Assembly: GCA_951406725.2 (NCBI GenBank)
Contig: OX597816.1
Location: 140,306,001-140,370,000, forward strand
Origin: Octopus vulgaris
Lineage: Eukaryota
Length of the DNA: 64,000 nucleotides
Direction of reading: 5' to 3'
Shown: in pieces, positions 5,960-60,033 of the stretch
How positions within the stretch are numbered: the stretch's first letter is position 1
How the letters are laid out: every line of letters starts with the position of its first letter
Program-made: the position numbers and the translations under genes
The notes under the pieces: generated by a model
Database searches by the model: none
Told to the model about the DNA's origin: nothing
Seen by the model: the letters and a program-made list of their open reading frames with translations, nothing else

Positions 5960-7260
5960 CCAAAAATATTGTCAAATCTTTGGAAACACGCATTAGTCTG
6001 TCCCTTTCTCAAGAAAGGCAACTTATCTGATCTTGTCAACTATCGCCTTATCGCACTCACTGTCAATGTCTCCAATGGTAATGGAGACAGCATTAAAACG
6101 ACGTCTTTCCGCGCTTTGAATTAGTCTGTCTCCTCAGTGACCATCAGTACGACTTTCGTTAAGTCAGATCTACTAGCCTACTAGTGACCCACAACTTTCC
6201 ATCACTCATCTGATGTCTCTTGGCTCGAGAGAATTTCATGAGAGTAATATCGTTGCTACCGACATCAGTTTTCAGTTTGTCTAGTATGCATATCTCCAAG
6301 CAAAACTGTCTGTCTTTGTCCTTCATTCGTCACTCATCCTTTGGATCGGTAGATTTCTATCAGATCGCAGTATTGCCGTGTGTATTGATGAAGCATTTTT
6401 GTCCCTTGTTCTTTTAACTCCGGTTTTGTCACCCACTTTATTGCTTCTATCCATCAATGACTTACTTGCCACCTACTTGCCACCATATCCAACAACATCC
6501 GCGCTTACGTAGATTATACTACTCTTTATTTCTGCCAAGCATTCACTAGATACCAAACCCTCAGAGACTCCACGAATAAGCGACCTCAAAAGCATCCTCC
6601 AATGGAGATATGCCAATCTTGTCGCTTTCAGCACCAAACAAGCAAAAACGCTGAAAAAAATAATCGTGCTCACCCTATTTAATTGTAAGCAGCACTCAGA
6701 ACCCGCAAACTCGCGCCAAATGTTGGGTCTAGCTCTCACAGAAGATCCCTTCTGGTGAAAGAACATTCATAACGCACCAAGGACCGCATCCCAAATAAAT
6801 GACTCTGCTCTTCAACTTCAGAAGATACTTCAGCTCCCAGCACATATTGATGTCCTACAAAACTCATGTTAGGCCTTTAATGGAGTACTACCCATACATC
6901 TGAGGAAGTGGTAATGTTGCTGCATACATAGACATTCTTGACTGCACCCAGAAAAGGGCCACCCAACTGAATAGTATGAAGTCACAAACAGACTGCAGCC
7001 AATGGCTCACTGTCCCTTCTCTTTACCTTTTCTACCGAAACTATAACCGCCTGTGCTCCGCGGAGCTGGCTGGTTGGCTAGTTAACTGGCTAGACTTATA
7101 TCACCTCTACTCAGGCATTGCCGTCTCACTCGTCCCTTTTTCCACCAGGTCCCTCACTAATCACTATCTCCAGTCCTCCCTTCTGGATTTTCCTCCCTTC
7201 TGGATTTTCCTCCCTTCTCATATTTTTGCTGCAGGTTTTGGCTTAGAGCGGTTCAAGGCA
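5960..7260 (+). mobile_element. Highly decayed L2/CR1-like LINE ORF2 3' portion
   Basis: Residual motifs NYRLIALT, DHQYDFR..RST, YK.HVRPLMEY and LYLFYRNY, with many disruptions. Confidence 0.65.
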
Positions 7261-8451
7261 TTAATCACCGGTCTACCAATTTTTGTAAACCCAGAAGGTG
7301 TGGGGGAACAGCATCTTTTTTGGAACAATTTCTTTAATTGTATAACAATGGTAAAGGCAGTGTGAAAATAAGAATCTTTTCAAATTTAGGCACCAATTTT
7401 GAACGAAGTAGTTACTTGGTTGTATTGACCACAGTATTACATTGCTTTCTAACTTTATTCACACTAGAAGGAAATATGAGTTGAACTCGGCAAGATACGA
7501 ACTAGAAACTAATGCTTTAACAGCACAGACCATCTGTCTACTGTAATTACACGCACACACATATCTAATAACAGTTTGATTCAGTGCCATATGACTTACA
7601 GTTCGTAAGCGCCTGAGACATAGATTTTTTTACATTATATCTCTTTGTTTATTCCTCTTGAATTAATTTTCGAAAATTCTTTTCTGTGATTGTTATTATC
7701 ACTTGACAGAACATGTGCTGCATTTACACATGTGCATATGTTGTCGATCACGGAAGTTTCACCTTGTTATATAATGTGCGTTGTAACATATCTTTTGTGA
7801 AATACTGTACAATAAGTAAAATTCATGTCGACTTGCATAACTTGTTAGTTAACAAAAAACACATTATTTCGGGGTTTTCTGAGGAAAACATTAATATTCA
7901 AAATGAACTTATTTTATGTATAACATTGGATACAAAGCTTGAATTTTGAGCTCAGAACTCTATTCTAATAGTATTTTGAGTTTAACTTTTACTTTAGCAA
8001 AACACTCATCTGACTGAAGTAAAAAAAACAACAAAAAAAACATCGTCTTTTAATACTTTCAATTTGTGTCTCCCTTCAATGACCACCAGTATGATTTTCA
8101 TAAAGCCAAATCTATTGGTGATCTACTCTCCTGTATTATTAACATGTGGGTACATGCTCGAAGGAATTTAGTGAAAGCGATGTTATTGTTCTTGATATCA
8201 GTTTTTCTAATGTATGTGTCTAGTGAGCGAACTTCTAATCGAAATGTCCATCTCTGGGTTCAACTGGTTGGTCATATCTTAGATCAGTAGATTTCGATTA
8301 GGTAGTCCCATTGCTCTTACTCCGATTTTGTCGAACACACTTTCAAAAATAACTGTTTGCTGTTTACAACATAACATTCAGTATGTATGCAAATCCCACC
8401 ATACGCATCCACACACATCATGCAGAAATGAAGTGGCATGTATATGAATAT

Positions 8452-8527
<76 letters not shown>

Positions 8528-10070
8528 GTATGTATGTATGTATACATGTATGTATGTATGTATGTATGTATGTATGTATGTATGTATGCATGTATGTATG
8601 TATAGGCGAATAAATGATAAAAAATACAGGAAGAACCAACAAGACTCAATTAAACGTACATTGTGAATATATTAGATTTAAAGTTTTAGATGAAAAATAG
8701 GAGTAGAAACGATGTTTCGAGCATGGCTCATCGTCGGATAAAGGGAGAATTCTAGAGAGGAGGGAAAACCTTTTTCCACCAGGTCCCTCACTAATCACTA
8801 TCTCCCGTCCCCCCTTCTGGATTTTCCTCCCTTCTCATATTTTTGCTGCAGGTCTTGGCTTAGAGCGGTTCAAGGCATTAATCACCGGTCTACCAATTTT
8901 TGTAAACCCAGAAGGTGTGGGGGAACAGCATCTTTTTTGGAACAATTTCTTTAATTGTATAACAATGGTAAAGGCAGTGTGAAAATAAGAATCTTTTCAA
9001 ATTTAGGCACCAATTTTGAACGAAGTAGTTACTTGGTTGTATTGACCACAGTATTACATTGCTATCTAACTTTATTCACACTAGAAGGAAATAGGAGTTG
9101 AACTCGGCAAGATACGAACTAGAAACTAATGCTTTAACAGCACAGACCATCTGTCTACTGTAATTACACGCACACACATATCTAATAACAGTTTGATTCA
9201 GTGCCATATGACTTAAAGTTCGTAAGCGCCTGAGACATAGATTTTTTTACATTATATCTCTTTGTTTATTCCTCTTGAATTAATTTTCGAAAATTCTTTT
9301 CTGTGATTGTTATTATCACTTGACAGAACATGTGCTGCATTTACACATGTGCATATGTTGTCGATCACAGAAGTTTCACCTTGTTATATAATGTGCGTTG
9401 TAACATATCTTTTGTGAAATACTGTACAATAAGTAAAATTCATGTCGACTTGCATAACTTGTTAGTTAACAAAAAACACATTATTTCGGGGTTTTCTGAG
9501 GAAAACATTAATATTCAAAATGAACTTATTTTATGTATAACATTGGATACAAAGCTTGAATTTTGAGCTCAGAACTCTATTCTAATAGTATTTTGAGTTT
9601 AACTTTTACTTTAGCAAAACACTCATCTGACTGAAGTAAAAAAACAACAAAAAAAACATCGTCTTTTAATACTTTCAATTTGTGTCTCCCTTCAATGACC
9701 ACCAGTATGATTTTCATAAAGCCAAATCTATTGGTGATCTACTCTCCTGTATTATTAACATGTGGGTACATGCTCGAAGGAATTTAGTGAAAGCGATGTT
9801 ATTGTTCTTGATATCAGTTTTTCTAATGTATGTGTCTAGTGAGCGAACTTCTAATCGAAATGTCCATCTCTGGGTTCAACTGGTTGGTCATATCTTAGAT
9901 CAGTAGATTTCGATTAGGTAGTCCCATTGCTCTTACTCCGATTTTGTCGAACACACTTTCAAAAATAACTGTTTGCTGTTTACAACATAACATTCAGTAT
10001 GTATGCAAATCCCACCATACGCATCCACACACATCATGCAGAAATGAAGTGGCATGTATATGAATATGTT

Positions 10071-10149
<79 letters not shown>

Positions 10150-10856
10150 GTATGTATGTATGTATGCATGTATGTATGTATGTATGTATGTATGTATGTA
10201 TGTATGCATGTATGTATGTATAGGCGAATAAATGATAAAAAATACAGGAAGAACCAACAAGACTCAATTAAACGTACATTGTGAATATATTAGATTTAAA
10301 GTTTTAGATGAAAAATAGGAGTAGAAACGATGTTTCGAGCATGGCTCATCGTCGGATAAAGGGAGAATTCTAGAGAGGAGGGAAAACCTTTTTCCACCAG
10401 GTTCCTCACTAATCACTATCTCCCGTCCCCCCTTCTGGATTTTCCTCCCTTCTCATATTTTTGCTGCAGGTCTTGGCTTAGAGCGGTTCAAGGCATTAAT
10501 CACCGGTCTACCAATTTTTGTAAACCCAGAAGGTGTGGGGGAACAGCATCTTTTTTGGAACAATTTCTTTAATTGTATAACAATGGTAAAGGCAGTGTGA
10601 AAATAAGAATCTTTTCAAATTTAGGCACCAATTTTGAACGAAGTAGTTACTTGGTTGTATTGACCACAGTATTACATTGCTATCTAACTTTATTCACACT
10701 AGAAGGAAATAGGAGTTGAACTCGGCAAGATACGAACTAGAAACTAATGCTTTAACAGCACAGACCATCTGTCTACTGTAATTACACGCACACACATATT
10801 TAATAACAGTTTGATTCAGTGCCATATGACTTAAAGTTCGTAAGCGCCTGAGACAT
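7135..10856. repeat. ~1.62-kb tandem array A-invB-A-invB-A
   Basis: A = 7135-7621, 8769-9238, 10387-10856; invB = 7623-8768, 9240-10386, the reverse complement of 14739-15796. The ORFs at 8066/9682 (+) and 15128-15352 (-) are identical. Confidence 0.95.
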
Positions 10857-11233: not shown

Positions 11234-11287
11234 AGAAAGTTGGTTTTGAAAAGCTAAACGCGAAACCGGTCTTTCTTCTAAACTATG

Positions 11288-14046
11288 ATTGATTGATTGA
11301 TTGATTCTAGTTTCAGCTTATGAGCTGTGGCCATGCTGGGGCACCGCCATTTGGTGTTGCTACTTCGTTTCACTTCATGAAGGCATTCTAGCAACTGCTA
11401 TTTGGTGCATGATAGAGTTCGATGCAGCTGCCCTCATCTGCCCCTCCTGCCGTGAAGTTGGTTCATCTGGGACACCTGACAGGAAGAGATCCAGCTTCAT
11501 TTTAAAGACCTCTGTATCCACCCCATGCAGGTCTCTCAGGTTCTTCGGGAGGATATTGAAGAGCTGTGGGCCTCGGAAGCCCAGGCTATCACAGAATCTT
11601 GTCCTACATCTTGATGGCAAGCTTGGAGTCCTAGGCACCACGCAGTGGCGCCCAGTTCTGGCATTTGCGTAACTCTCGATGCCAAAGTTCAGGACACTTC
11701 CCTCTAGGATCTTCCAGATGTATATTATGGCATATCTTTCCCGCCTACGTTCCAGGGAATATAATTTTAATCTCTTGAGTCTTTCCCAGTAGCTTACATT
11801 CTGCATAGAAGCTATCTTCTTCGTGTAGCTACGTTGGATCGCCTCGAGCTCTGTGATCAACTTGACACTGGATGGTGACCATAACTGAGAGCAGTAGTCA
11901 AAGTGGCTTAGGACAAGTGTCCTCCAGAGGACCATCATGGTTTCTTGTTCTCTTGTTCTAAAGGTTCTGAGGATCCATCCGGCCAGTCGTCTACATTTCA
12001 TTGCCAATTTAGCAACATGTACACGAAAGGTTGCGTCATCACTCATGTAAATACCTAGGTCACGCACTGATTGTGCCTCTGGGAGTGCTATTCCTCCGGG
12101 TCCAGTGTATTCATTGGGTATTGCATTTAGTTTTGCATGCTGATAGTATAGAGCTTGAAACTTTTCAGCATTAAACTGCATGCTATTCTTTTCGGCCCAC
12201 TTGTATATTTTGTCTAGCTCACATTGCAGGTGTTTAGTGTCCTCAGGGTTCTGTATTGCCTGTGAAACTTTTGTATCATCTGCATAACTTGTGATCGTGG
12301 CTCTCTGCGTGGCTGAGGGCATGTCTGAGAGGGCCATTATGAACAGTAGTGGTCCCAGAACAGTGCACTGCGGAACACCGCTCACTATTTGCGTGTTAAT
12401 GGAAGTGGTCCCATTGGCCACTACCACCTGACTTCTATCTTTCAGAAAGTCATGAAGCCATTCTCCCAGTTTTCCAACTATGTTGAGATCACGCAGTTTG
12501 TGACATATCATTCCATGATCGACTTTATCAAAGGCATTTGCAAAGTCGAGATATATCACTTCCACATTTGAGTGGTTGAGCAGCCGTTTCAGCACCCAGT
12601 CATAGTGTTGTAGGAGCTGAGTTAAACAGCTTCTCCCTGGTCGGAAACCATGTTGGGTGTCGGGCAGCAAGTCATTCTCTTCAAGGAAGGTGATCAGCTT
12701 CCTTCTGACTATTCGTTCCATGACCTTGCTGATGTGTGAGGTCAGAGAGATAGGTCTATAGTTCTTGGCTTCCGCTCTGCTACCTCCTTTATGAATGGGG
12801 CATATTTTACCTTCCTTCAGTTTTCTTGGAAGTTTGCCAGCCGCAAGGAAGCTCTGAAAGAGGAACTGCAGTGGTCTTGCTAGGACTCTCTTACATGCTT
12901 TTAGGAGGATTGCCGGGAATCCATCGGGGCCAGTAGCTGAGTCTGTTTTCATTTCATCTATAGCCTTGATTACATCGTCTTCCTTTATTTCGATGTAATC
13001 TATCGTCGCCGCCTCTGATTTTATATCTGCAGTGGTAAAAAAGTCAGTTGGATCGGTGATTTGGAGATGCCCAAGGGGTGGAGTGAAAACACTCTTGAAT
13101 TGCTCATTCAGTATTTCACTTACCCTCATTGGTTTTCCTGTAAGTGTGCCATCCTTTTCGAGGAGTGGCCCTATTCTACAGTGCACCGTAGCTGTTTCTT
13201 TGGCATACCTGTAGAAAGCTCTGGGGTTAGATTTTATGTTGTCTATAGCCCAGGCTTCTTTGTCTGCTCTTTCCTTTTCATGGGAGAGTTGCAGACATTT
13301 TTCGATTTCCAACAGTTTTATTTTTAGGCGGGACTTTTCACTGCTTTCAATCTGTTTGTTTAGGCGATTTGAAATTTTTGTACGCCGTCTCATTAAAATT
13401 TTCCTCTCTCTGGGGATTTTGTTCTTGTGTACAGTGGCCTTTCTCTCTGGGACGCATTTGTAGCATATGGCTTGCATTACAGACATGAATTGTTGAAGTT
13501 TCACGTCGATGTCTGGCGAGGAGAGACATTTAGGCCAGTTTTGTTTGAGGATCTCTTTCTCAATTTGTTTCCAGTTTGCCTTATGGTAGTTCAAGCTGGA
13601 AAGATTCTGAGGGTTTCTTGTAGGCTGCATGTCCGTGCTCTCTTTTGGCCCGTACATGGTCAGCTCTATCATGTTGTGATCCGAGAGTAGTGTCGGTGTC
13701 ACTTTCACATTATGGATGAGATCCATGTCATTTGTGAAGCAGAGATCCGGTGTGTTACCTGCCCTGGTTGGTTGGAGTATTACCTGCTCCATGTACAGAG
13801 TGTTGATGAGGTTCAGGAGGGACCTCGCCTGTCCTCGTTCACATCTTGTCATTCCTGGGAGAGAAAGGCCCTCGGGCCATCTGACATTTGGCAGATTGAA
13901 GTCTCCCATAAGAAGTACACTTATGTGTTGTTCTAATGTGGTTAGAACTTCTTCTATTTTTATAAGGCAGTCTTCAAACTTGCCCACATGGCTTGGGGCA
14001 TCTGGAGGGCGATATGTAGCACACACAACTACATCAAGTTGCCTAG
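11288..14046 (-). mobile_element. CR1-clade LINE, 5'-truncated, with short 3' UTR and (AATC)n tail
   Basis: Long ORF2, then 3' UTR stem-loop and aatcaatcaatc tail at 11288-11306; truncated inside the endonuclease domain. Confidence 0.92.
11375..14026 (-). CDS. LINE ORF2: partial APE endonuclease plus reverse transcriptase, 883 aa open frame
   Basis: YRPP, GDFN and SDH (APE); NYRPISLTS, QHGFR, YLDFANAFD, GVPQCTVLGP, YADD (RT). Endonuclease N-terminus is missing and PQG is changed to PQC, so probably inactive. Confidence 0.93.
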   Translation of the reverse strand: MCATYRPPDAPSHVGKFEDCLIKIEEVLTTLEQHISVLLMGDFNLPNVRWPEGLSLPGMTRCERGQARSLLNLINTLYMEQVILQPTRAGNTPDLCFTNDMDLIHNVKVTPTLLSDHNMIELTMYGPKESTDMQPTRNPQNLSSLNYHKANWKQIEKEILKQNWPKCLSSPDIDVKLQQFMSVMQAICYKCVPERKATVHKNKIPRERKILMRRRTKISNRLNKQIESSEKSRLKIKLLEIEKCLQLSHEKERADKEAWAIDNIKSNPRAFYRYAKETATVHCRIGPLLEKDGTLTGKPMRVSEILNEQFKSVFTPPLGHLQITDPTDFFTTADIKSEAATIDYIEIKEDDVIKAIDEMKTDSATGPDGFPAILLKACKRVLARPLQFLFQSFLAAGKLPRKLKEGKICPIHKGGSRAEAKNYRPISLTSHISKVMERIVRRKLITFLEENDLLPDTQHGFRPGRSCLTQLLQHYDWVLKRLLNHSNVEVIYLDFANAFDKVDHGMICHKLRDLNIVGKLGEWLHDFLKDRSQVVVANGTTSINTQIVSGVPQCTVLGPLLFIMALSDMPSATQRATITSYADDTKVSQAIQNPEDTKHLQCELDKIYKWAEKNSMQFNAEKFQALYYQHAKLNAIPNEYTGPGGIALPEAQSVRDLGIYMSDDATFRVHVAKLAMKCRRLAGWILRTFRTREQETMMVLWRTLVLSHFDYCSQLWSPSSVKLITELEAIQRSYTKKIASMQNVSYWERLKRLKLYSLERRRERYAIIYIWKILEGSVLNFGIESYANARTGRHCVVPRTPSLPSRCRTRFCDSLGFRGPQLFNILPKNLRDLHGVDTEVFKMKLDLFLSGVPDEPTSRQEGQMRAAASNSIMHQIAVARMPS

Positions 14047-14293
14047 CCCTTTTTTTTTAAAGCCTAGCCAGGCTCATGGGCCCGGTTTCCTGGTTTCTAT
14101 GGCGTATGTGCTCCCCAGCTGAATGGGACGCCAGTCCATCGCAGCGTTACTCGTTTTTGCCAGCTGAGTGGACAGGAGCAACGTGAAATGAAGTGTTTTG
14201 CTCAAGAACACAACGCGCCGCCCAGTCTAGGAATCGAAACCACAATCTTTCGATCACGATGCTGACACCCTAACCACTAAGCCACGCGCCTCC
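14047..14293 (-). mobile_element. Full-length tRNA-derived SINE with V-SINE-like core, fused to the LINE 5' end
   Basis: Head ggaggcgcgtggcttagtggttagg (A box) ... ggtttcgattcc (B box); core ttgtgttcttgagcaaaacactt and tgcgatggactggcgtccc; A-rich end abuts the LINE. Confidence 0.85.
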
Positions 14294-14397
14294 ATGTCAT
14301 TGTAAGGAAAAAAAATTGTTAATATTCTTCAGACATATTGACGCAAATATATATATTTTTTAACCTTTAAGCCTGCTGTAGTTTTTTCACTTTTTAC

Positions 14398-14469
<72 letters not shown>

Positions 14470-14561
14470 ACTTGTTTCAGTCTTTTGACTGCGGCCATAC
14501 TTATAACAGAACCAATTTTACATTAATCAGATTGGTTACACAATACTTTTGTGGAGCATAA

Positions 14562-14688
14562 ATTTATTATTCTTAAACAAAAATATTATTGACAGTGACT
14601 TCGAAATTTCGGTCATCGTCGAAGATGGCTTAGCTGCCCGAAACTTCGAAGACTCTACCAATAATATTTTTGTTTAAGAATAATAAAT
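14562..14688. repeat. ~127-bp imperfect hairpin (second copy ~32761-32887)
   Basis: atttattattcttaaacaaaaatattattg pairs with caataatatttttgtttaagaataataaat; inner arms cttcgaaatttcgg / ccgaaacttcgaag. Confidence 0.85.
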
Positions 14689-14918
14689 GTATATATATTA
14701 TATACATATACAGTCTCCGGACTACCTCCTCCTTTCTCTTTTCCCTCCTCTCTAGAATTCTCCCTTTATCCGACGATGAGCCATGCTCGAAACATCGTTT
14801 CTACTCCTATTTTTCATCTAAAACTTTAAATCTAATATATTCACAATGTACGTTTAATTGAGTCTTGTTGGTTCTTCCTGTATTTTTATCATTTATTCGC
14901 CTATACATACATACATAC

Positions 14919-14963
<45 letters not shown>

Positions 14964-15942
14964 AACATATTCATATACATGCCACTTCATTTCTGCATGA
15001 TGTGTGTGGATGCGTATGGTGGGATTTGCATACATACTGAATGTTATGTTGTAAACAGCAAACAGTTATTTTTGAAAGTGTGTTCGACAAAATCGGAGTA
15101 AGAGCAATGGGACTACCTAATCGAAATCTACTGATCTAAGATATGACCAACCAGTTGAACCCAGAGATGGACATTTCGATTAGAAGTTCGCTCACTAGAC
15201 ACATACATTAGAAAAACTGATATCAAGAACAATAACATCGCTTTCACTAAATTCCTTCGAGCATGTACCCACATGTTAATAATACAGGAGAGTAGATCAC
15301 CAATAGATTTGGCTTTATGAAAATCATACTGGTGGTCATTGAAGGGAGACACAAATTGAAAGTATTAAAAGACGATGTTTTTTTTGTTGTTTTTTTTTAC
15401 TTCAGTCAGATGAGTGTTTTGCTAAAGTAAAAGTTAAACTCAAAATACTATTAGAATAGAGTTCTGAGCTCAAAATTCAAGCTTTGTATCCAATGTTATA
15501 CATAAAATAAGCTCATTTTGAATATTAATGTTTTCCTCAGAAAACCCCGAAATAATGTGTTTTTTGTTAACTAACAAGTTATGCAAGTCGACATGAATTT
15601 TACTTATTGTACAGTATTTCACAAAAGATATGTTACAACGCACATTATATAACAAGGTGAAACTTCCGTGATCGACAACATATGCACATGTGTAAATGCA
15701 GCACGTGTTCTGTCAAGTGATAATAACAATCACAGAAAAGAATTTTCGAAAATTAATTCAAGAGGAATAAACAAAGAGATATAATGTAAAAAAATCGTAG
15801 GATTGGCCGCCTGGGTGGAGAAAAAACAGAAAATGTATATAATTAGACAGTTGCCTATAATTAGATACTGCATATAACAATAGTTGTTGAATAAATTAAA
15901 TCGATGTGCAATATATTCCCACCTTACGTTTCAAAAAATTTC

Positions 15943-16018
15943 TATATATACTGAGCTAACTCGATCACATACCACTCTCAGGTTAACTTATCCTGGAAGC
16001 ACACAGAAACAAGTGAAG
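15943..16018 (+). promoter_or_regulatory. Putative TATA-like box and non-coding first exon of tyrosinase copy 1
   Basis: tatatata at 15943-15950 and a perfect donor AAG|GTAAGT at 16018/16019. The ATG exon begins at an acceptor (ttttcag|AAATG), so an upstream exon is required. Confidence 0.5.
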
Positions 16019-16189
16019 GTAAGTGACTTACACTGTTATGACATTTCGATACAGCAGTAATACTTAAGGTGTAATTCAGGCATGGGCAACCTATTTCCAG
16101 AAGCAGACTGCATGAGATGGCTCATTTTCAGGCGGGCTGCACAATCAAAAATTCCAAGGTAATTTTTCGTTAAAAATCAGCGCCGAGAA

Positions 16190-16257
<68 letters not shown>

Positions 16258-17971
16258 GAAGATAATGTTACCAGAGTCTTATGAGACAATGTTTACCAAG
16301 ACTAACCAACATTTTCATTGAGAAGAACAGGCGTATAGTTATTACAGTAAACGTAATATTAATTTTCATCTCTTCAAAAGCTGCGTGGTATCTTCTTCGC
16401 CAAATTTATGGTGAAATATTTAAAATTTAATTAAATTAAACAGAAGTAATCAAATCATACGAAACTGGCGGTATATCCAACTGAATTAATTATTCTTTTA
16501 TGTTTCTTTAATCAGCCCACTTTAATTTCTTTCATGTTTATGTGTTTAAACTTCAGGTTAATCGACTTAAAAGATAAACAATAAATGAATACATATACAT
16601 TTATAGCATATAAAGTACAATATATATTGGTATCATTTCTCAAAATTTCCAACAGATTTCTCTTTGCATTGCCGCAAAGTTAGAAAAGGCTTTTTCAAAA
16701 AGATTATTGTCCACAACTCGAAAAATTTCTCTCCTACCGACAGATATTCATTTTATTTTCAAAAGTATGTCCTGATAAATGTTTCTACGTTAATGAATCA
16801 AGCAAAAATCATTTGGAACGACATCTCGCTCATATGACGAACACGAGAGCGAAGCAAAGCCAGAAAATTCAATTTTCGTATATGTATTGCCGAAATAGAG
16901 ACAGCAGCTGTTTCTGTTTCAATAATTCTTCTGTACACAATCATTAAAATAGCAAAGTGGAATGTTTCGAAATTTTGGACATTTTCCATACCTCACTGGA
17001 GTAGTCTGATTAGTTTATATTTTCATGGGAGATTATACTTTTAATGTATAGTCCATATTTGGCTGTATGCATATGCTTATGTGGTGGCCAGATGGCAGTC
17101 GTAAGAAAGTCGGATAATTTGACTGGCAGTATTCGTTCTGGATTCCTGCGCGATGAGTTCAAATACCAACGGTGTCAACTTTGTCTTTCACCATTTCTTT
17201 GTCGATGAACAAGGTCCCAGTCCCGTACTGATTTTGAATCTTCACTTTCTCTCTTTCTCTCTATTTCCCAATTTCTCTTTCTGGAAGAAAGCAGCTATTG
17301 TCAGACTCGGAGGTAGATAGGCCCCGCCAGGTCTAAAAGTGCCCACGACAAGCTCTATGTCACATTGTCGCTCCAAAGATTCAATTAGAAGTTGATGGGC
17401 CTACGGCACGGAATGGCGTATGCTTGTGTATCTTATTCTTATGGAATTCAAATAAGATGTCTGTCTATCTATGAATTTGAGATCTTGCAATAAAATGAAA
17501 GTAAACTGAATATTTACAAAGTTCTGGATCATTTAAAGAAAATTCTAAACTTCGCAGTAGAAACCAAAGTTTCTTCTTGAAATTCAGTTGTTTTGGATCT
17601 GGGACAGTGATGTACATATTTTGAAATTTCAAGAAATAATTTCTTCTGCGAAACATCCATTCTTCATGTCCACAATATGTCGCTAGACAAGGCATTTTAA
17701 TTAAACCAGCCCACTTCACTCATTAGTAAGCAGGTTGAGCTGGTATTATAATTCATAATTTATTGATGAAGTTAGTAATTCTTTGGTTAGCAGTGCCCAG
17801 CGTCTTAAAGCAGAAACTGCAAAGAAACACTCCTATTGATCTACAGGATTTGGAAAAAGATCAGTTGAATTAGTAGAGCTCCTACATTGCTAATTTCATT
17901 TTTTTTAAGTACCGATTTTTGAAAATTATCAGTTAATAATGTTTTCTCTTCGTTTTATTTGATTTTCAGAA

Positions 17972-18307
17972 ATGAATCGTCTGTACTTTGCATTCATTGT
18001 ACTGCTCAATATTGTCTATGCGAGTCCGCAGTCAGGAAGATTTGTTCAGGATTGTTATAATAAACTGTGCGATTCTAACAACCAGCAGCCTAAACAAAGT
18101 ATCCACCGATTGCAGTATTGCGTTTATAAATTGCAACTCACTAAGCCATGTTTTAAATGGCCAACAACGAATAAATATTCTGAAAGACCGCCTCCGTCAA
18201 GCTGGAGAACTCCTCAAGCGCAAAGAATAAGGAAGGAATATAGGTTGCTCAGTGAACGTGAAAGATATGATTTCCATCGTAGTGTTTATCTTTTAAAACG
18301 AGATACG
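17972..18307 (+). CDS. tyr: Tyrosinase-like protein copy 1, coding exon 1 (signal peptide to RIRKEYR...KRDT)
   Basis: Hydrophobic N-terminus MNRLYFAFIVLLNIVYA; RIRKEYRLLSERER motif that opens tyrosinase domains; donor acg|gtaaga, phase 0. Confidence 0.92.
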
Positions 18308-18349
18308 GTAAGAATATTTTGTTGCATATTTTGTTGTGTGTGACTGTGT

Positions 18350-18426
<77 letters not shown>

Positions 18427-18656
18427 CGCGTGTGTGTGTGTGTGCGTGTGTGTGTGTGTGTTTCACCTTCATATTTTTCACATTAACTTCATGTCTTAGA
18501 AAGAGAACTCTGAAGTAAATATATCGTATTAAAGCGGAGTTTTTATATGTGACTATAGCATTATGACTCCTTTTACTCCAACAATCATAGCTAACAGAGA
18601 TGAGCTTCTTCCAGCGAAACAGATATACATCTATGCCAATGATTTACACCCACCCA

Positions 18657-18702
<46 letters not shown>

Positions 18703-18791
18703 TGCATATATATATATATATATACATATATATACCACACAGACACACAGATACAGAGACACGGAGACACACACACACACACATACAGATA

Positions 18792-18872
<81 letters not shown>

Positions 18873-18958
18873 ATGGTTGTTTAATATATATATATTCATA
18901 TACTGTATCCCCATACCAAAGATGACATTGTTGAAGAATCGTCAACCATAACTTGATC

Positions 18959-19027
<69 letters not shown>

Positions 19028-19198
19028 CTTTAAAAAGAATCAGTGTCCTGGTCAAAGAAAAAGTGAAATATATTTGATGTGAAGGGAAAATATCAAAATC
19101 AAAGTAACTACAAAAATACATCATATATACTTTCGAATAAACCTCAATGAACGTTAGTTGCGCCCCAATCATTATTTTTCTTATTGTTTCACTTACAG

Positions 19199-19311
19199 AG
19201 ACTGTCACCAAATGTATACGATGCCACCGCCTTCCTGCACATTGGTGATACTGCAAGAAATGCCCACGGTGGACCTTCATTTCTTCTCTGGCACAGAATC
19301 TATTTGAAAAT
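19199..19311 (+). CDS. tyr: Tyrosinase-like protein copy 1, coding exon 2 (CuA site)
   Basis: Not in the ORF track. ttacag| then RLSPNVYDATAFLHIGDTARNAHGGPSFLLWHRIYLK(M), then |gtaagc. Three CuA histidines; phases 0 and 2 fit both neighbours. Confidence 0.93.
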
Positions 19312-20271
19312 GTAAGCCATGCAATCAAACATTACTTTCCATTTCTTTCTTTGTTTTCTCTCTTTCTTTATTTATTTATTTGTTTTCTTCTTCTTTTGCG
19401 TTTTTTTCTTGCTTTTCTTTTACTTTGCTATATTCTTCCATTCTCTGTCTTGTCCTTGAGTTGTTTTGTTTTACGGATATTTTATTTTATTATTTTCGTA
19501 CACTTAGTTTTCTTTCTTTTCTATTGTATTCTTTACCGATGTTTCCCTTTTTGTCTGAGTTCTCTATCATTAATTTCAACCACGCAAGTCGAAAAGGAAG
19601 CCTCTATGTAATTGTTGGACGTACACGAAATATTACCCAATTCTCCCTCAAAAAAACACCTACTGTTTTATTTTTTATAGAAAACAAAAGATGATAAATT
19701 CGAGCATGTATGATTAGATATAATTTATGAAAATAAAGTGGGATAGCATTGAAAATGCTTTTATTCAAGAAAACCATTCTCTATGTCTAACATTAAGGCA
19801 AAACTCTGTAAAGATTTATTACAGTATGATATGTCATCATTCTTTTGCTCACTGGCTTGGCTACTATAGCCTACCGCAATTCGTTATGTATTACTCCAAA
19901 AACAAATTTCGTAGCCTCCGAATTCACGTAATCCATCCTGGTTTACCAATTTTCCACTCTATTTCCCCAAACTCCGCCACATCTCAATCTTCCTTACAAA
20001 CTACCTATTAATATTTCGCATTTCACCGACGAAGGTATTCTGCCTGAAACGTTAAAATTGCTGCTGATAACAAAATGATTTCTTCTACTTCGCGAAATGT
20101 TTTAGAAATAAATGTTTTTCTATTCTTTAGTTTAAGAGTAATAGATCTGAAAATATTATGCAGTGCTCATCATTTATATTTTGAAGTAAGTAATGGACGG
20201 ATAGGTTGATATCTTGAATAGTTATTTAGATACAAGAATTAGTTATGCCACTTAGCTGTATATATTTAGAA

Positions 20272-21561
20272 CTAGGTGGTATCAAAAAGTTCCAAGATTA
20301 GTTCTGTAGGCGCCAACTGATGGCAGGATGGCAGACCACGGTTGCGTGCACAGTGAGAGCTAGCAGTGACTTTCATGAGGCAGTGTGCCGAGTGACATGA
20401 CTGTGTTTACTTTGCAAGTTGTAGAATTTATTCTTCTGTGATCACGTGTATGCTGTAGTCAGCGATTTTGTCATGGACAGGAAGTTGGAACCAGGAGCCA
20501 ACATGAAATTTTGCGTTAAACTTGGGAAGTCCGCTACAGAGACATTCAGCATGCTTCGGCAACCTTACGGCTACGAGGCAATGGGCCGTACGCAAAGATT
20601 CGAGTGACGCGAGCGCTTCAAAAGCGGGAAAATATCACTGGAAAACGATGAGCGATCTGGAAGACCTGTCACGAACGTCGACCCAGAAATGTGGAGAAAA
20701 TTCATTAGCTTGTGCTTGAGGATCGTCTGAAGACAGTCAACGATATTGCTGATGTTGTTGGCCTGTGGTATGCGTCCGTGCAGGCAATCCTAACATCTGA
20801 ATTGAACATGCAGCGTGTCTCTGCCAAGTCTGTGTACCGTCTGCTGATCACTGCGCAGAAAAGACATCACTTCGAAGTCTGTCAGGATCTCCGCCAGTGC
20901 ACCGCTGATGACCTATCCTTCATGTCAAGGGTCATCACCGGTGACGAGAGTTGGGTCTACGGGTGCATCCCTAAGCAAACGCGGCAGTCGCCGCGATGGA
21001 GCAGCCCTTCATATCCACGACCGAAGGCTCGACAGAGCCGAAGCTCAGTTAAGAACATGCTCATCGTTTTTTTTCTTGTTTTTTTTTTTACATCCGTGCT
21101 ATTGTGCATCGAGAATTCGTCCCACAGGGCCAGACCGTCAATCGAGAGTTTCACTGCGGCGTTTTGAAGCGGTTGAGGGAGAACATTTGACGAAAGCGAC
21201 GGATTTGTGGAGTTCGAAGAACTGGATTTTTCGTCCGAAACAGCGTGGTATCGCTTCCGCACCCGCCCTATTCGCCAGATTTAGCACAAGCAGACTTCCA
21301 TCTTTTCTCCAAAATGAAAAGACAGTCCAAAGGTTGCCGTTTTAACACCGTTGTTGAGATCCAGAGCGGATGGCAGAAGCTCTTCGACTCACTTACGGAA
21401 AACGACTTCCAGGCCGAATTACAAAAGTGATAGGAAAGCTAGGACCGATGTATTTCTGCGCAAGTGACTATTTCGAAGGAGATGATGTTAAAACTTAAGT
21501 AAATAAGTTATTTTTTTATTAAACATAATTAGTCGTCCGTGAACTTTTTGATACTACCTCG
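20272..21561 (+). mobile_element. Full-length (~1.29 kb) degenerate mariner transposon in the tyrosinase intron
   Basis: TIRs ctaggtggtatcaaaaagttc / gaactttttgatactacctcg followed by TA; motifs ITGDESWVYG and HPPYSPDLAQADFHLF; frameshifts and stops. Confidence 0.92.
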
Positions 21562-21795
21562 TAATCTAAGTAAATTCGACTGTTGAGAGCTAGAAATCTC
21601 AGAGTACGAGAATCTCAACCGTTAATCCTTGCTTGCCAAGAGACATCAGTATACTAAAAATTTAATCAAGTCCAGTGTTCGAACATTTTCTAAGAAATAT
21701 AGTTACTCGCTCGATTAAATATTGATCGATAAATGTAAATATGCATTGAAATATATTTTCTACGTATTAAATTGAGTTTACATTTTTTATTTTAG

Positions 21796-23293
21796 GATGG
21801 AAGATGCTCTTCGTGAAAAAGTACCAGGTGTAACAATTCCATTTTGGGATCCAACTCTTGACAGTCATCTTTCTAATCCTCGAGATTCCACTATGTGGTC
21901 AGATGAGTTAATGGGAACTATCAATGGTTTCGTCACCAAAGGGGCGTTTGCTAACTGGAAAACACCAGCTGGTACTCTAATAAGGAACGGGGGTTTCAGT
22001 ACAAGGTTACCGACAAGTAGTAACATCGAAGATGTTCTCACTCGAACGAAACTCGAAGAGATCTCTGAACCTAATGCGCAAGAACGATATAACTTGGAAT
22101 TCCTGCATAATTCTATGCATGTTGTTATTGGAGGTCACATGGGTTCGGTACCATCATCACCCATGGACCCAATTTTCTGGCTAGTCCACAGTTACATAGA
22201 ACTTGTCAACGCGCGTTTCAATGAAAACCAAAGGCGACACAACGTTAATCCCGCAACAGATTATCCTTCGGATTATGGTTTAAATGTTTACGCTCCCAAT
22301 CAAAGTATTGGTCTTATGAATTTAACCGTTTTAGAGGCATTAAGAGAAACTGAAAGTTACACTAATATTTACAAATATGACTATAGTTACTTGGGAAACT
22401 GTGCTCTCAATCCAAATTTATGTAATTCTCCATACCTAACCTGCAATAATGGTAGATGCGAGTCGAAATCTAAAAACTCAACTCGTTGCAGTACTTTAAT
22501 TCCCTATCAGAATATGTTTTGTATCAACCGTAGATGCGATGTAGATGAATGGGCATTTATTCCGGTTGAAATTATTTACGAACGACCTTTCGACACGATG
22601 AAATTTGGAAATTTTCCTATTAAAAATGGTCTGCCGAATTTGCTGAATGATCTGTACGATGATAATCAACCCCTAAATTCCTCGTCCGGTAACTCAACTG
22701 GAAATAATTGTCAAAACAGTAAGTGCTGTGGTCCAGCAGGAAGACTCAACGTGCAAGCTAGTGGTATAAATTATTTTGGAACCTATCAAGAAATGGTGGT
22801 ACTTGACCGTAGATTAGCTGTATCATCGGATATCACCTATATCGGTATCAGAAACCCCGAAAGAAACGCCAGTGTAGTTTTTATTACAGCTTCAGAACAA
22901 TGTGGAAGAATATGTCGTCCTTCTTGTTTAGTGCCGGGTTCAAATCCACCGAGATACACACCATGTATAGGACTGTTGAACGTAACACGTAACAATGCTA
23001 CTATGTACGGTAAAACACTCGCAGAAGCTTACATGAAAGTGTGGGATTATAGAAACCAGATACGACCGAAACTGAGACATGAAAATATTCCAATAGTGTT
23101 CCATTGTGATGACAGCCGGTGGCCATTTAACAACAACACCAATACAACAACAACTGCATCACCGTCGACAAGAGCAACGACTACAACAGCGACAACAACA
23201 ACGACAACAACAACAACCACAACACCATCTACCACTGCATCTACAACAACACGTGTGTATTGGCCAATTAGACCGTCACCTAAAAGTAAGTAA
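21796..23293 (+). CDS. tyr: Tyrosinase-like protein copy 1, coding exon 3 (CuB site, Cys-rich C-terminal region, Thr-rich tail)
   Basis: ttttag|G ATG; TIPFWD; LEFLHNSMHVVIGGHM...DPIFWLVHSY (CuB). Spliced CDS 336+113+1498 = 1947 nt = 648 aa plus stop. Confidence 0.95.
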
Positions 23294-23717
23294 TAATGGA
23301 CTTCGTTATCGTCTGTAATTGTCAGCATCTGCTCTTGTTACGGGGTTGAGGGTAGGCCAGTGTGGATCATATTAACATTTGTGTCTTTGTAAGTGTAGTT
23401 CTAATGTGCATATTGAGAGTAGTTGTGTAATACATATATAAAAATAGTTCTTGATTGTTTTGCACTATTTCAATATTTTGTTGCTCTTCAAGCCAAGAAA
23501 ATATTCGACAATTTCTCATACAGGCATTAAGCTCACCAGTAGGTGTGGGAAATAGCATCTTTTGGGGAGAATTTCTTTTAATTATATAACAACGGTAAAT
23601 GCAGTGTGAAAATAAGAATCGTTTCAAATTTTGAATGAAGTAGTTACTCGATTATATTGACCACAGTATTACACTGCTACTTATGAAGATATATAAGATA
23701 GAGCTCAATTCGGCAAA

Positions 23718-23759
<42 letters not shown>

Positions 23760-23760
<1 letters not shown>

Positions 23761-23880
23761 AAGTCGCGTGGTCTTGTGGTTTGGGTGTTGCCAGAACATG
23801 GGTTCGATTCCCGGATCGGATGGTGCGTTGTGTTCTTAAGCAAAACACTTCATCTCATGTCGCTTTGCGGCTGGAAGTGA
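23760..23880 (+). mobile_element. Degenerate SINE 5' part, same family as 14047-14293 (copy ~41980-42100)
   Basis: gcgtggtcttgtggtttggg...gggttcgattccc...ttgtgttcttaagcaaaacactt. Confidence 0.65.
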
Positions 23881-24095
23881 CAAAATCGTTGGTGCATCGG
23901 CATAAATGCTTTACGGTATATTCTGAGTTCAAATCCCACCTGCGTGGAGAAAGTAATAAGAAACCACACCAGTCCGCATCCCAAGCCTAGTCATGGTAGC
24001 TGAAGTTCCAGTAATCAACTTAACAGCAGCAAGGGACGATACGGTTCTTCACGGACCATATAGAGAGTGTTGAAGAAGCTCATATGCACAAGACC

Positions 24096-24323
24096 GGCGA
24101 GCTGGCAGAAACGTTAGCACGTCGGGCGAAATGCGTAACCGTATTTCGTCTGCCGTTACGTTCTGAGTTCAAATTCCGCCAAGGTCGACTTTGCCTTTCA
24201 TCCTTTCGGGGTCGATAAATTAAGTACCAGTTACGCACTGGGGTCGATATAATCGACTTAATCCGTTTGTCTGTCCTTATTTGTCCCCTCTGTGTTTAGC
24301 CCCTTGTGGGTAGTAAAGAAATA
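24096..24323 (+). mobile_element. tRNA-derived SINE, near full length (copy ~42316-42543)
   Basis: ggcgagctggcagaaacgttagc (A box), gagttcaaattcc (B box), core gcctttcatcctttcggggtcgataaattaagtacc; followed by (TA)n. Confidence 0.85.
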
Positions 24324-24366
24324 TATATATATACATGTATTGATGCATATATATATATATGCATAT

Positions 24367-24470
<104 letters not shown>

Positions 24471-25756
24471 AGGGGCCATATCTACCTACATATATATAGC
24501 TGTTAGATAATTGTCCTGACCATGGACATAATGAAGCACTAGTTACATACGGCACAACTCGCCAAACTCTCATCATTTTTCACGGAGTATATAAGTACTG
24601 AAAAAGAGGAAATGTACCTAGGGTCATTCGGAACTTCATATATTCTTGATAAACACGACTACCAAGGCAATGTTATTTCCTTGTACCTAGCCTATAATCG
24701 CCTATTCATTCATGCAGCTCACCAAGACATTTTGCTTTGTAATGAATTTCAGTTGCTAAGTTTGTCTTTTCTCCTAATGTTTTTACTTCTCTATTGCAGA
24801 ATGCTACATCAACCAGAATTGTGCCATTGCCAAAGGATGTGACTGTATATCGATGGACAAACAGCCTTGCATACAAAAGTGTTCCCATTACGCTTTATGT
24901 GTATATGGCTCTTACATAGTATCTTCCTGTGGCTACGGTAGAAGGTATGAACCCTATTTAAGAAGATGCATCCCGGGACGTTGTCAACATTAAATGTAAG
25001 GCTGCTGACACTCTTATTAAGCAATATTCCCAACGAAATAAAAGATGAATTTTCTTCCACGTTTGACTTTTACAGAGTAATATTTAGAGGAGGACATTCT
25101 CCAACAGCATTACCTGAGTTCATTTCTAGATGAATGAGCGGGACGATGGATAATGATGTGAAAGTGAATTTGGAAATGGAGAATGAATGAACGAATGACT
25201 GAACGAATTAACGAATGAACGAACGAACGAGCGAGCGAGGGATCTCTGTGGGATCTGGTACTAGTTTTAAATAGAAACCTGTTGAACGAGTTTCTGATTT
25301 GCTTACTATTTTTTTTGTCATCATTCATTTTTCACAACATTTATTTTTTGTGTAAATACATCTAATCTAATATCTAAATAAAATCATAATAAACTCATAA
25401 AATTTCTTCTGAGTTTTTAATTATCTTACATGGAAGTGGCGAAAGTGATAAAAAGAATTTGGAATTAAATAAAAATATTGCCTTCTGATTTCTAATCACT
25501 CATTTCGGAAATTACCCAAACAAGTTAATCAGGATTGAAGCGATAAAATATTTAGTTATTATAAACATCTGATCGACGTATTATGTCCTGTCTATATCGT
25601 TGATACAAGACAATATTTGTATGTAGCGAAAGCATTAAACCTAAGAAAATTGTGTAATATTGGATTAAGTGTGCTAAATATTTGTTTTTGTCCCTCAAAA
25701 TCAAAATTCTAAACCTGCCAAAATTGGTATCTTATTTTTGTACTTGATAAAATAAC

Positions 25757-26221
25757 GGTTTCAAATTTTGGCACAAGGCCAGCAATTTTAGAGGTGGCGG
25801 CAAGGCGATTACATCGACTTCCCCAGTGTTGAACTGGTATTTATTTCATCGGCCCCGAAAAGTTGATGTAAGACAAAGTCATCTGCGGCGGAATATGAAC
25901 TCAGAACGTAAGGCCAGACGAAATGCCGTGAAGCATTTAGTCCGGCGTGCTAACGATTCTGCCTGCTCGCCGCCTTCTTACATTATCAAATAATTCTTTC
26001 TATATTAGACACAAGGCCTGAAATTTTGAGGTGGGTGGGGATGGGGTGGTTAAGTCGATAAGATTGACCCCAGTACTCAACTGTTACTAAATTTATCAAC
26101 CCCGAAAGGACCCCGAAAGGCAAAGATGACCTCAGCGGAATTCAAACTCAGAATGTAAAGACGGACGAAATGCCGCGAAGCATTTTGTCCGGCGTGCTAA
26201 CGATTCGGCCAGCTCACCGCT
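25757..26221 (-). mobile_element. Two tandem SINE copies (~25757-25975, ~26005-26221); copies ~43975-44439
   Basis: Reverse complements of the ggcggcgagctggc...gagttcaaattccg SINE; both are followed on + by ttcttacattatcaaa. Confidence 0.8.
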
Positions 26222-26237
26222 TTCTTACATTATCAAA

Positions 26238-26631
26238 TCTTTATATTTTTATATATAAAAGTAAGGTTGTGTGCTGTCTGTCTCCTACGATTTAGATTCA
26301 TAACTACTCCCACATTTTGCAGTGCAGTTTAACCAAAAGCGGGTATCTTATAGTCGTGATTCATATCGAGCCCTTCTGGGTATTAGCGCGCGTCTACGAT
26401 GAGTAAAAAAAATTACCATCAATTTTTCCCATTTTTAATGCAGTTTTGGCATATATAAGGGAAGTAACTCTCTAAAAATGTATTATTAAATCTCAGAACG
26501 TAAAAAGCTACAGTAACACTCTCCCCTTTGTGGTTAGCCATATTGAGATGGCTATTATACTTTACATCTCTAAAAATGCTTATATAGTTATTTCCCTTAC
26601 AAACCCGAGCAACGCCGGGCGATACTGCTAG
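26238..26631 (+). mobile_element. Non-autonomous Helitron (copy 44456-44849)
   Basis: 5' TC, 3' hairpin cccgagcaacgccggg then CTAG; inserted between A and T with no target-site duplication. Confidence 0.85.
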
Positions 26632-26774
26632 TAATAACATGAAATAATAAACTAGGATCACCTACATGACTTACCTTACATTTTCGCGTTACAGATATAG
26701 AGAGACAGGGAGAGAGAAAATTATCTAGAAAAACAGACAAACAGACAAACAGACAGACAAGCGGAGAGCAAATA

Positions 26775-27135
26775 GAATGTCATGCGATATTTCTTCCGAC
26801 TCTTTACGTTCTGGATTCAGTCACGTTGAGTTTGATTTTGTCCTCCATCGTTTCAAGGTAGATAAAATAAGAACAAGTCAAGTACTGGGGTCGATGCAGT
26901 CGACTAACCCTCTCCCTCTAAAATTGCTGGCCTTGTGTCAAAATTTGAAGCAATTAAAGGCGGTGAGCAGGTAAAAATCATTAGAGCATCGAACCAAATG
27001 CTTAGTGGCATTTCTTCCGGGTCTTTACGTTTTAAGTTCAAATATCACCCAGATTATCTTTGCCTTTCATCCTTAAAATATAATCGACTAACCACTCCCT
27101 CTAAACTCACTTGCATTGTGCCAAAATGTGAAACC
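26775..27135 (+). mobile_element. Two degenerate SINE copies (copy ~44995-45355)
   Basis: Repeated ttcttccg.ctctttacgtt, gtactggggtcgat and aattgctggccttgtg.caaaatttgaa segments. Confidence 0.6.

Positions 27136-27420: not shown

Positions 27421-27421
<1 letters not shown>

Positions 27422-27511
<90 letters not shown>
27422..27511. repeat. (GATA)n microsatellite (copy ~45639-45720, shorter)
   Basis: Perfect tetranucleotide run. Confidence 0.95.
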
Positions 27512-32205: not shown

Positions 32206-32630
32206 CGAAATTTATACTTATATTTATATTTACTTATATTTATATTCTCTTTTATATATATTCTACTTATTATACAACATTACTTTTTTATGTACACTTT
32301 TTTATGTACATTCATTTATGTACACTGATTTGTTCTGCTTTTATATCTAACCCTACAGTCTCTTATGTGGTGGTTTAATAAAGTATGAGATTGAGTATTA
32401 TATGGAGATTGAGTATTATATGAAGTGTTTTGCTCAAGAACACAACGCGCCGCCCAGTCTAGGAATCGAAACCACAATCTTTCGATCACGATGCTGACAC
32501 CCTAACCACTAAGCCACGCGCCTCCATGTCATTGTAAGGAAAAAAAAATTGTTAATATTCTTCAGACATATTGACGCAAATATATATATTTTTTAACCTT
32601 TAAGCCTGCTGTAGTTTTTTCACTTTTTAC

Positions 32631-32668
<38 letters not shown>

Positions 32669-59436: not shown

Positions 59437-60027
59437 ATAATTTATGTCATAAAATGCTCGGGCTGCCACCAAGACTACGTGGGATCCACGGGACTATCAC
59501 TCAGACGTAGATGCACACTGCATCGACAACAGATTGCATTCCCAGAATACAGAATGATACCTTTTAGTGAGCACATTGAGAAATGCGCAAAGCAACTACT
59601 ACAACAATTTTTAATCTTTCCATTTTACCAATGTGCTATCGGATCATCAACACAAACTAGACTAAATAATGAAACATTCTTCATTGAAAAGTACAAGCCC
59701 AGACTTAACCATTCCAACATACTTATACAGAGAAATTCACCCCAAAGGAAAGGAAAAGAATTTTAAGCGATTATCTACCTTACACCGGAAGAAATCACTT
59801 ATTACCTCCCCTTATTTAGAACTCTTTTCAACATAAGCATAACGATAACTCTCCTCAACATAAACATAACGACGTAAGAAATTTGAAAAGCTAAACGCGA
59901 AACCGGTCTTTCTTCTAAATTATGTCATTGTAAGAAAAAAATTCATAATATTCTTCAGACATATTGACTTAAATATATATTCTTTAACCTTTTAAAACAA
60001 GCCTTCTGTAGTTTTTTCACTTTTTAC

Positions 60028-60033
<6 letters not shown>
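59437..60033 (+). mobile_element. Penelope-like element 3' fragment: GIY-YIG endonuclease plus pLTR
   Basis: Open frame IIYVIKCSGCHQDYVGSTGLSLRRRCTLHRQQI...EH...RLNNETFFIEKYKPRLN, stop at 59766; degenerate hammerhead at ~59876-59914. Confidence 0.85.

What the first reader, a model, noticed from the sequence alone, without database searches (positions are those of the whole stretch)
11285..14296. SINE-LINE chimera at a single insertion site, with an empty-site homologue in the same window
Seen: on the minus strand a full-length SINE (14293 to ~14047) is joined through an A-run to a 5'-truncated CR1 LINE ending in (AATC)n at 11288. The flanks ...ttcttctaaactATG and ATGtcattgtaagg... rejoin to match an uninterrupted repeat at 59881-60033 (ttcttctaaattATGtcattgtaag), so one 3-bp ATG duplication brackets both elements. 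An 8-nt repeat gcctagcc (14041-14048, 14062-14069) marks the join. Established: LINE RT template switching makes U6-L1-type chimeras with this polarity. Inference: this is a CR1 template switch onto SINE RNA.
Basis: partly seen in the sequence, partly recalled or inferred. Interest (0 to 1): 0.72.

Follow-up and report, generated by a model that had tools for sequence, protein, structure and literature searches.

The report
One-off SINE–LINE fusion at one site
A short and a long jumping gene sit fused, head to tail, in one clean insertion site, likely because the long element's copying enzyme hopped onto the short element's RNA mid-copy; this is a single, likely dead copy of a kind of fusion already known from mammals.

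Summary
The structure is real. A SINE (14293-14046, minus strand) abuts a 5'-truncated APE-RT LINE (14045-11288) inside a young host repeat. The two flanks rejoin to the empty form in 66 paralogue alignments, with only a 2-3 nt overlap. Three corrections: the SINE lacks its 3' tail; the A-run is SINE-internal, not the joint; and the 'empty site' is a paralogue, not an allele. Evidence for one event: a LINE-type short footprint (23 of 32 lone SINEs have 11-25 nt duplications), matching ages (LINE 0.7% private changes, SINE about 1% once a sister copy is counted, host 1.3%), and a joint-spanning 8-mer repeat (chance 0.7-3%). The repeat fits a homology-guided jump followed by the back-slip seen at 5 of 128 other junctions of this LINE. 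SINE first, then LINE with a small deletion, is not excluded. No SINE-only allele was seen, but the contig test was inconclusive. The fusion is rare (0 of 128 other copies), single-copy and likely dead. It is an Alu/L1-type chimera in a probable octopus. The scan already noted similar RNA-retroposon fusions elsewhere in this genome.

The parts
11237..11284 (.). Left piece of the host repeat (end region of a young RT-encoding interspersed element, Penelope-like by recalled motifs)
   Evidence: 0 differences from the majority of 23 paralogues over the 43 nt next to the insertion
11285..11287 (+). ATG (CAT on the element strand): target overlap at the LINE 3' end; the C is shared with the AATC tail
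   Evidence: other copies of this LINE mostly end AATC followed by AT
11287..11306 (-). (AATC)5 tail of the LINE
11314..11349 (-). Two predicted hairpins at the LINE 3' end; many copies are truncated just 5' of them
   Evidence: z = -2.56; 30 of 128 copies are 47-75 nt long
11288..14045 (-). 5'-truncated LINE, 2758 nt of an element about 5.55 kb long; open ORF2 fragment that lacks about the first 110 aa of the endonuclease; at least 1,932 exact 3' ends in the genome
   Evidence: RVT_1 E=1e-28 and Exo_endo_phos_2 E=2e-11; 19 private changes in 2740 nt
14045..14046 (-). SINE|LINE joint, blunt
14041..14048 (-). Joint-spanning 8-mer: 3 nt of SINE plus 5 nt of LINE
14062..14069 (-). SINE-internal copy of the 8-mer, 21 nt upstream of the joint copy, in the SINE's predicted 3' hairpin
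14050..14058 (-). A9 run, expanded from the family's internal A4
14046..14293 (-). SINE with intact 5' end, A-box-like (14284-14274) and B-box-like (14241-14230) motifs (recalled consensus); 3' tail missing
   Evidence: 93-95% to the best family copies; no Rfam match; shares 8 of 10 comparable variants with L146
14294..14296 (+). ATG (CAT): target overlap at the SINE head; the last 1-2 nt could be the SINE's own first bases
14297..14402 (.). Right piece of the host repeat
   Evidence: 2 substitutions from the majority of 23 paralogues
32420..32635 (-). Copy of the SINE's first 106 nt and the host flank, carried by a later 18.2 kb tandem duplication
59860..60032 (.). Uninterrupted paralogue of the host repeat (not an empty allele)

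Best explanation
A SINE lacking its tail and a 5'-truncated LINE sit fused in one clean site, likely from one insertion in which the LINE's reverse transcriptase primed at a CAT target, copied 2.76 kb of its own RNA, and then likely jumped onto a SINE RNA and copied it to its 5' end. Shown: the anatomy, the 0-3 nt footprint, the matching ages and the single copy. Inferred: the jump, and its likely two steps. First the cDNA end paired with the 5-nt match inside the SINE's 3' hairpin and gained 3 nt. Then it re-primed 21 nt further 3' on the same RNA through a 3-nt match. That sequence of events would give exactly the missing tail, the blunt-looking joint and the 8-nt repeat. The donor RNA likely came from L146 or from a shared source copy.
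For: Footprint: 23 of 32 non-dimer SINE copies have an 11-25 nt duplication, whereas 26 hand-picked LINE copies in non-microsatellite targets show only 2-6 nt overlaps. The window site has 2-3 nt and keeps no trace of a SINE tail or a SINE duplication. Ages: LINE 19 of 2740 private changes (0.7%); the SINE differs at 11 sites from the majority of 83 other copies, but L146 shares 8 of the 10 it covers, leaving at most 3 (P=0.23 at the LINE's rate; 11 would be P=1.5e-6); host 2 of about 150. The host bounds the SINE's age, so the SINE's 4.7% divergence was mostly inherited. Joint: an 8-mer repeat spanning the joint occurs at 0.7% of LINE positions with this SINE end, and at 2.9% with the end also varied. 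5 clear cases of 128 junctions (8 flagged) carry 7-18 nt back-slip duplications with 1-3 nt matches. Chance: a rough 0.002-0.12 sequential look-alikes per genome, with assumed deletion rates. The same SINE is fused 5' of a sister CR1-type tail at 6 other loci, one (L150) at the same SINE base.
Against: No allele or orthologue was seen either way. 0 of 128 other LINE copies carry this SINE at the joint, and a pattern search of the shortest copies found 0, so the rate of such jumps is not shown for this family. This LINE can sit at a site with host DNA missing: L250 lacks about 61 bp, and it was the only other informative non-microsatellite case. The 8-mer fits DNA-level synthesis-dependent end joining equally well, and many real junctions of this family reach 8 or more, partly through low complexity. 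The pairing that would close the SINE's terminal stem at GGGC is not better than shuffles (z -0.05) and vanishes with more context. No near-identical donor (97% or more) is in the assembly.
Confidence: 0.68

Rival explanations
1. Sequential insertion. The SINE inserted first, with its normal tail and long duplication. The LINE later primed at the CAT that ends the downstream duplication, and its 5' joining deleted about 20-30 nt (tail plus duplication) and was sealed by synthesis-dependent end joining, leaving the 8-mer.
For: The LINE prefers AT/CAT targets and SINE tails are AT-rich. About 61 bp of host is missing at L250. The 8-mer fits a DNA loop-out join. Contigs show this LINE's tail inside a SINE elsewhere (joint 14248 to 11284 in run X4).
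Against: It needs two independent insertions at one base of a 160-bp fragment of a host about 1% old, within the same short interval. Rough expectation 0.002-0.12 per genome. No leftover tail or duplication.
Confidence: 0.17
2. RNA ligation before reverse transcription: a clipped SINE RNA was ligated to a LINE RNA fragment (as RtcB does for U6/L1), and the chimeric RNA was copied in one pass.
For: The joint is blunt with no direct microhomology. The footprint and ages fit any single event. RtcB ligation is shown for U6/L1 (PMC6789731, abstract and introduction start seen).
Against: Ligation gives no reason for the 8-mer repeat (chance 0.7-3%). The SINE does not end at its natural U-run. The family's junctions show polymerase re-priming.
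Confidence: 0.1
3. The LINE inserted first and SINE DNA was patched in later (break repair or gene conversion from an L146-like locus), or the fusion formed elsewhere and was copied here.
For: A related donor-like locus exists (L146).
Against: The SINE ends at its own first base with no donor flank. Only the window itself matches across the joint among the 40 scored candidates, and it is the only one of the 56 A>=7 loci that runs on into the LINE.
Confidence: 0.05

Closest known systems
Alu/LINE-1 chimeric insertions (10.1101/2025.02.02.635956, sections 20 and 23 read; 113 cases, 88.5% sense)
   Same: SINE 5' of a truncated LINE, same orientation, one target duplication around both; the paper also notes young LINEs paired with older-looking SINEs.
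   Different: Here the LINE ends in a tetranucleotide tail with a 0-3 nt footprint, not poly(A) with an 11-17 nt TSD. The SINE lacks its tail. The SINE seems to belong to a different LINE partner (long duplications, no shared tail).
U6 chimeras with L2, Mon-1, RTEX and AnolisSINE2, and one gapped U6-CR1 case in turkey (PMC4476161, passages)
   Same: A Pol III-type RNA captured at the 5' end by a LINE with a simple-repeat tail; small 1-9 bp TSDs as reported for platypus L2.
   Different: The captured RNA is a SINE and the LINE part is long (2.76 kb).
WEIRD/Mg-SINE/MGL chimeras of Magnaporthe (PMC2104539, abstract)
   Same: SINE and LINE transcripts fused within one insertion by inferred template jumps.
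   Different: A fungal element with 14-bp repeats and site-specific switching; no such recurrence was found for this LINE family.
SINE head or tail swapping by template switch: PittSINE (PMC5729268, passages) and MetaSINEs (PMC4824008, passages)
   Same: The same proposed step: a CR1-type RT moves from its own RNA to a small RNA or a foreign SINE.
   Different: This product did not amplify, and a Pol III transcript would likely stop at the first T4 run (13398), about 2.1 kb before the LINE tail.

Membership tests
SINE/LINE chimeric retrotranscript (Alu/L1, U6/L1 type) | Small RNA or SINE copy directly 5' of a 5'-truncated LINE, same orientation | tested here: met
SINE/LINE chimeric retrotranscript (Alu/L1, U6/L1 type) | One target footprint brackets both parts, none between them | tested here: met
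   flanks rejoin with a 2-3 nt overlap in 66 paralogue alignments; no SINE duplication at the joint; the overlap is too short to be diagnostic alone
SINE/LINE chimeric retrotranscript (Alu/L1, U6/L1 type) | Both parts arrive together (presence/absence across alleles or species) | tested here: inconclusive
   no contig bridging either joint and no SINE-only form among the listed rows of 5 runs; ages compatible
SINE/LINE chimeric retrotranscript (Alu/L1, U6/L1 type) | Unique joint, not amplified | tested here: met
CR1-clade LINE | ORF2 with AP endonuclease then RT | tested here: met
   (shared with L1, L2, RTE, Jockey)
CR1-clade LINE | 3' hairpin plus short tandem-repeat tail, no poly(A), short or no TSD | tested here: met
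   (shared with L2)
CR1-clade LINE | RT phylogeny groups with CR1 rather than L2 or CR1-Zenon | tested here: inconclusive
   homologue and atlas searches gave no clade names; motifs look CR1-like from recall only; no tree built
tRNA-derived SINE | About 250 nt, high copy number, A/T-rich tail, TSDs | tested here: met
   1,676 forward-strand exact matches of one 20-mer, so about 3,350 copies or more
tRNA-derived SINE | tRNA-related head | tested here: inconclusive
   A/B-box-like motifs by recalled consensus; Rfam 0 matches at E<=1
New SINE family with an acquired CR1 tail | Multiple copies with the same joint | tested here: not met

The most novel reading that the evidence does not exclude
CR1-type reverse transcriptases in this genome repeatedly capture a SINE that belongs to another LINE partner, entering through a short match in the SINE's 3' hairpin and back-slipping. 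The window copy and the six SINE-plus-CR1-tail fusions (L150-L155) are then snapshots of the SINE tail-swap step that has so far been inferred only from finished families. L150, which has no T-run before the new tail, has the layout of a would-be new SINE.
Probability: 0.3. Interest if true: 0.55.

Novelty: new member of a known kind. Interest (0 to 1): 0.3.

Why it matters
If it is a single event, it is a base-resolved invertebrate example of a stringent, CR1-type LINE copying a foreign SINE by template jumping. That is the step long proposed for how SINEs change LINE partners. The site is unusually well controlled: many empty paralogues, a young host and a traceable SINE lineage. The 8-mer gives a concrete in-vitro prediction. 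As a genome feature it is a single, likely dead copy, and the class is known.

Tried and rejected
Allele test. Contigs of runs X2, X4, X19, X20 and X2, X4, X19, X18 were laid on the site. No listed piece bridges host|SINE or SINE|LINE, no SINE-only or empty joint appears among the rows shown, and depth over the host part was zero at 98% likeness. Most rows were hidden (80 joints and 871 loose ends), so this proves nothing. Three further SINE-to-LINE-3'-end joints come from other loci that I could not place, so they may be insertions into SINEs.

SINE older than LINE (4.7% versus 0.9%). Rejected after the host age and L146.

A9 as a poly(A) linker, or as a mark of RT stutter at the jump. Rejected: about 1.7% of copies have A>=7 and nearly all keep their tails.

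Joint at the base of a terminal SINE stem. Weak: z -0.05, lost with more context.

A census of all 1,932 LINE copies was not possible; a sample of 130 was used instead.

The tandem duplicate does not date the SINE: 0 substitutions in its SINE and host piece, 35 of 16,599 overall.

Pfam did not name the host element (only a sub-threshold SIR2 hit) or ORF1 (sub-threshold Myb/SANT).

The SINE's own LINE partner was not found in the fetched loci.

Literature. A five-term search (CR1, target site, microhomology, extra nucleotides, template switching) gave 0 papers. 'Octopus, chimeric, SINE, LINE, template switch' gave 4, none describing an octopus SINE-CR1 chimera by title or abstract. Buzdin 2003 was not held. 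The bioRxiv supplement listing Alu/L1 chimeras was not seen.

Full report
Setting. The window lies in a 2.8 Gb genome. The only homologue of the LINE protein named to a species among the 120 listed is from Argonauta hians, at 64% identity, so the host is probably an octopus (inference).

Anatomy. On the minus strand a SINE starts at 14293 and runs to GGGC at 14046. The LINE starts at 14045: all 29 paralogues diverge from the window exactly there. SINE copies normally have A4, then GGGC, then a GCATTTA/T-rich tail. The window copy therefore has an expanded internal A-run and has lost its tail. A>=7 occurs at 56 distinct loci against about 3,350 A4 copies, and 54 of the 56 keep at least part of the tail (distinct loci counted by hand). 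The LINE part is 2758 nt of an element about 5.55 kb long. It holds an open ORF2 fragment with endonuclease and RT domains that lacks about the first 110 residues seen in a long copy. It ends in two predicted hairpins and (AATC)5. The CR1 label fits these features and recalled motifs but was not tested by a tree.

The site. The flanks belong to a young, abundant RT-encoding repeat (Penelope-like by recalled motifs, unconfirmed by Pfam). In 66 alignments to copies in the fetched loci the two flanks meet with a 2-nt overlap, 3 nt if the tail's last C is counted. No host DNA is lost and none is added. The copy at 59860-60032 is just one such paralogue. Lone SINEs leave a different mark: 23 of 32 non-dimer copies have an 11-25 nt duplication, one mismatch allowed (38 copies parsed, 6 set aside as dimers). 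In 26 LINE copies chosen by eye as lying outside microsatellites and indel regions, overlaps are 2-6 nt. The footprint is thus the LINE's.

Ages. At first the SINE looked five times older: 11 of 235 from its majority, against 15 of 1696 for the LINE. Two results reverse this. The host differs from the majority of 23 paralogues at only 2 of about 150 sites, and it must predate both inserts. L146, a normal SINE insertion with tail and a 14-nt duplication, shares 8 of the 10 window variants it covers; the next best of 83 copies shares 4. At most 3 SINE changes are private, which is compatible with the LINE's 19 of 2740 (P=0.23). L146 or a shared source is the likely donor; no donor at 97% or more was found.

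The joint. There is no direct microhomology. The 8-mer is 3 nt of SINE plus 5 nt of LINE and recurs 21 nt upstream inside the SINE. Such a repeat arises at 0.7-2.9% of random joins. At other 5' junctions of this LINE, 8 of 128 were flagged for a local repeat of the LINE's first bases. Five are clear (L186, L212, L240, L278, L280): 7-18 nt duplications, re-primed through 1-3 nt matches. The same habit explains the window. The cDNA end pairs with the 5-nt match in the SINE RNA, gains 3 nt, slips 21 nt 3'-ward onto the matching 3 nt of GGGC, and runs to the SINE's 5' end. This is inference, and a DNA loop-out join gives the same product.

Frequency. The LINE has at least 1,932 exact 3' ends. I examined 130 other copies: the first 100 on one contig plus the top hits, after dropping 27 short loci replaced by longer fetches and 2 apparent duplicates. 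Two were unresolved and about 8 'junctions' are probably internal indels. None of the 128 has this SINE at the joint (upper 95% bound 2.3%); 73 lie in (AT)n. A pattern for SINE end plus the shortest LINE copies found 0. A looser pattern found 6 loci where the same SINE is fused to the last ~60 nt of a sister tail, five at the SINE's T-run and one (L150) at the same GGGC. None shows a clear long duplication, and they were not proven single events.

Sequential alternative. It needs the LINE to prime at the end of a SINE duplication and delete 20-30 nt. With assumed deletion rates the expectation is 0.002-0.12 per genome. It stays possible because L250 shows about 61 bp of missing host, and because the allele test gave no usable result.

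Fate. The joint is single-copy. The endonuclease is cut, and a Pol III transcript would likely end at the T4 at 13398, far from the LINE tail, so it is unlikely to found a family.

Comparison. It works like Alu/L1 and U6/LINE chimeras (10.1101/2025.02.02.635956, sections 20 and 23; PMC4476161, passages; PMC2104539, abstract). CR1-type switching is already proposed for PittSINE (PMC5729268, passages) and for SINE tail exchange (PMC4824008, passages). Ligation is shown for U6/L1 (PMC6789731, abstract). Bivalve SINEs use several LINE partners (PMC11481361, passages). My searches listed no octopus SINE-CR1 chimera. Earlier notes of this scan report many U6, tRNA, 7SL and rRNA fusions in this genome (unchecked by me). 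Verdict: real, likely one event, a new member of a known kind.

Noticed in passing
window 14188-32417 and 32420-50669: An 18.2 kb tandem duplication (35 mismatches in 16,599 aligned nt) whose breakpoint lies inside the SINE; the joint carries a local repeat of about 17 nt, suggesting templated end joining.
   Followed up: partly
L150-L155 (centre about 1500): The same SINE fused directly to the last ~60 nt of a sister CR1-type tail. L150 joins at the same GGGC and has no T-run before the tail, but its B-box-like motif carries a change.
   Followed up: partly
L238, about 160 nt 5' of the LINE junction: A different SINE, cut mid-body, fused to another variant of the CR1-type tail.
   Followed up: no
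LINE family, L156-L285: Strong preference for (AT)n targets (73 of 128) and a truncation hot spot 47-75 nt from the 3' end, at the base of the predicted hairpin (30 of 128).
   Followed up: partly
L186, L212, L240, L278, L280: 7-18 nt duplications of the LINE's first bases at the 5' junction, one with (AT)n in between: signs of re-priming.
   Followed up: partly
L033, L034, L043, L051, L053, L058, L154: Head-to-tail SINE dimers and trimers are common (6 of 38 parsed copies; more), often with no duplication between units.
   Followed up: no
L092-L145: The host repeat often occurs as nearby inverted pairs and adjoins RT-like ORFs, as Penelope-like elements do by recall.
   Followed up: partly
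window 7135-10856, 14739-15796, 32938-34012: A 1.6 kb-period tandem duplication whose unit contains an inverted copy of a ~1.1 kb repeat also found at 14739-15796.
   Followed up: no
window 50844-55273: A second tandem duplication, period about 2.2 kb, about 98-99% identical.
   Followed up: no
L250: A 65-nt LINE copy inside a SINE with about 61 bp of that SINE missing at the site.
   Followed up: partly
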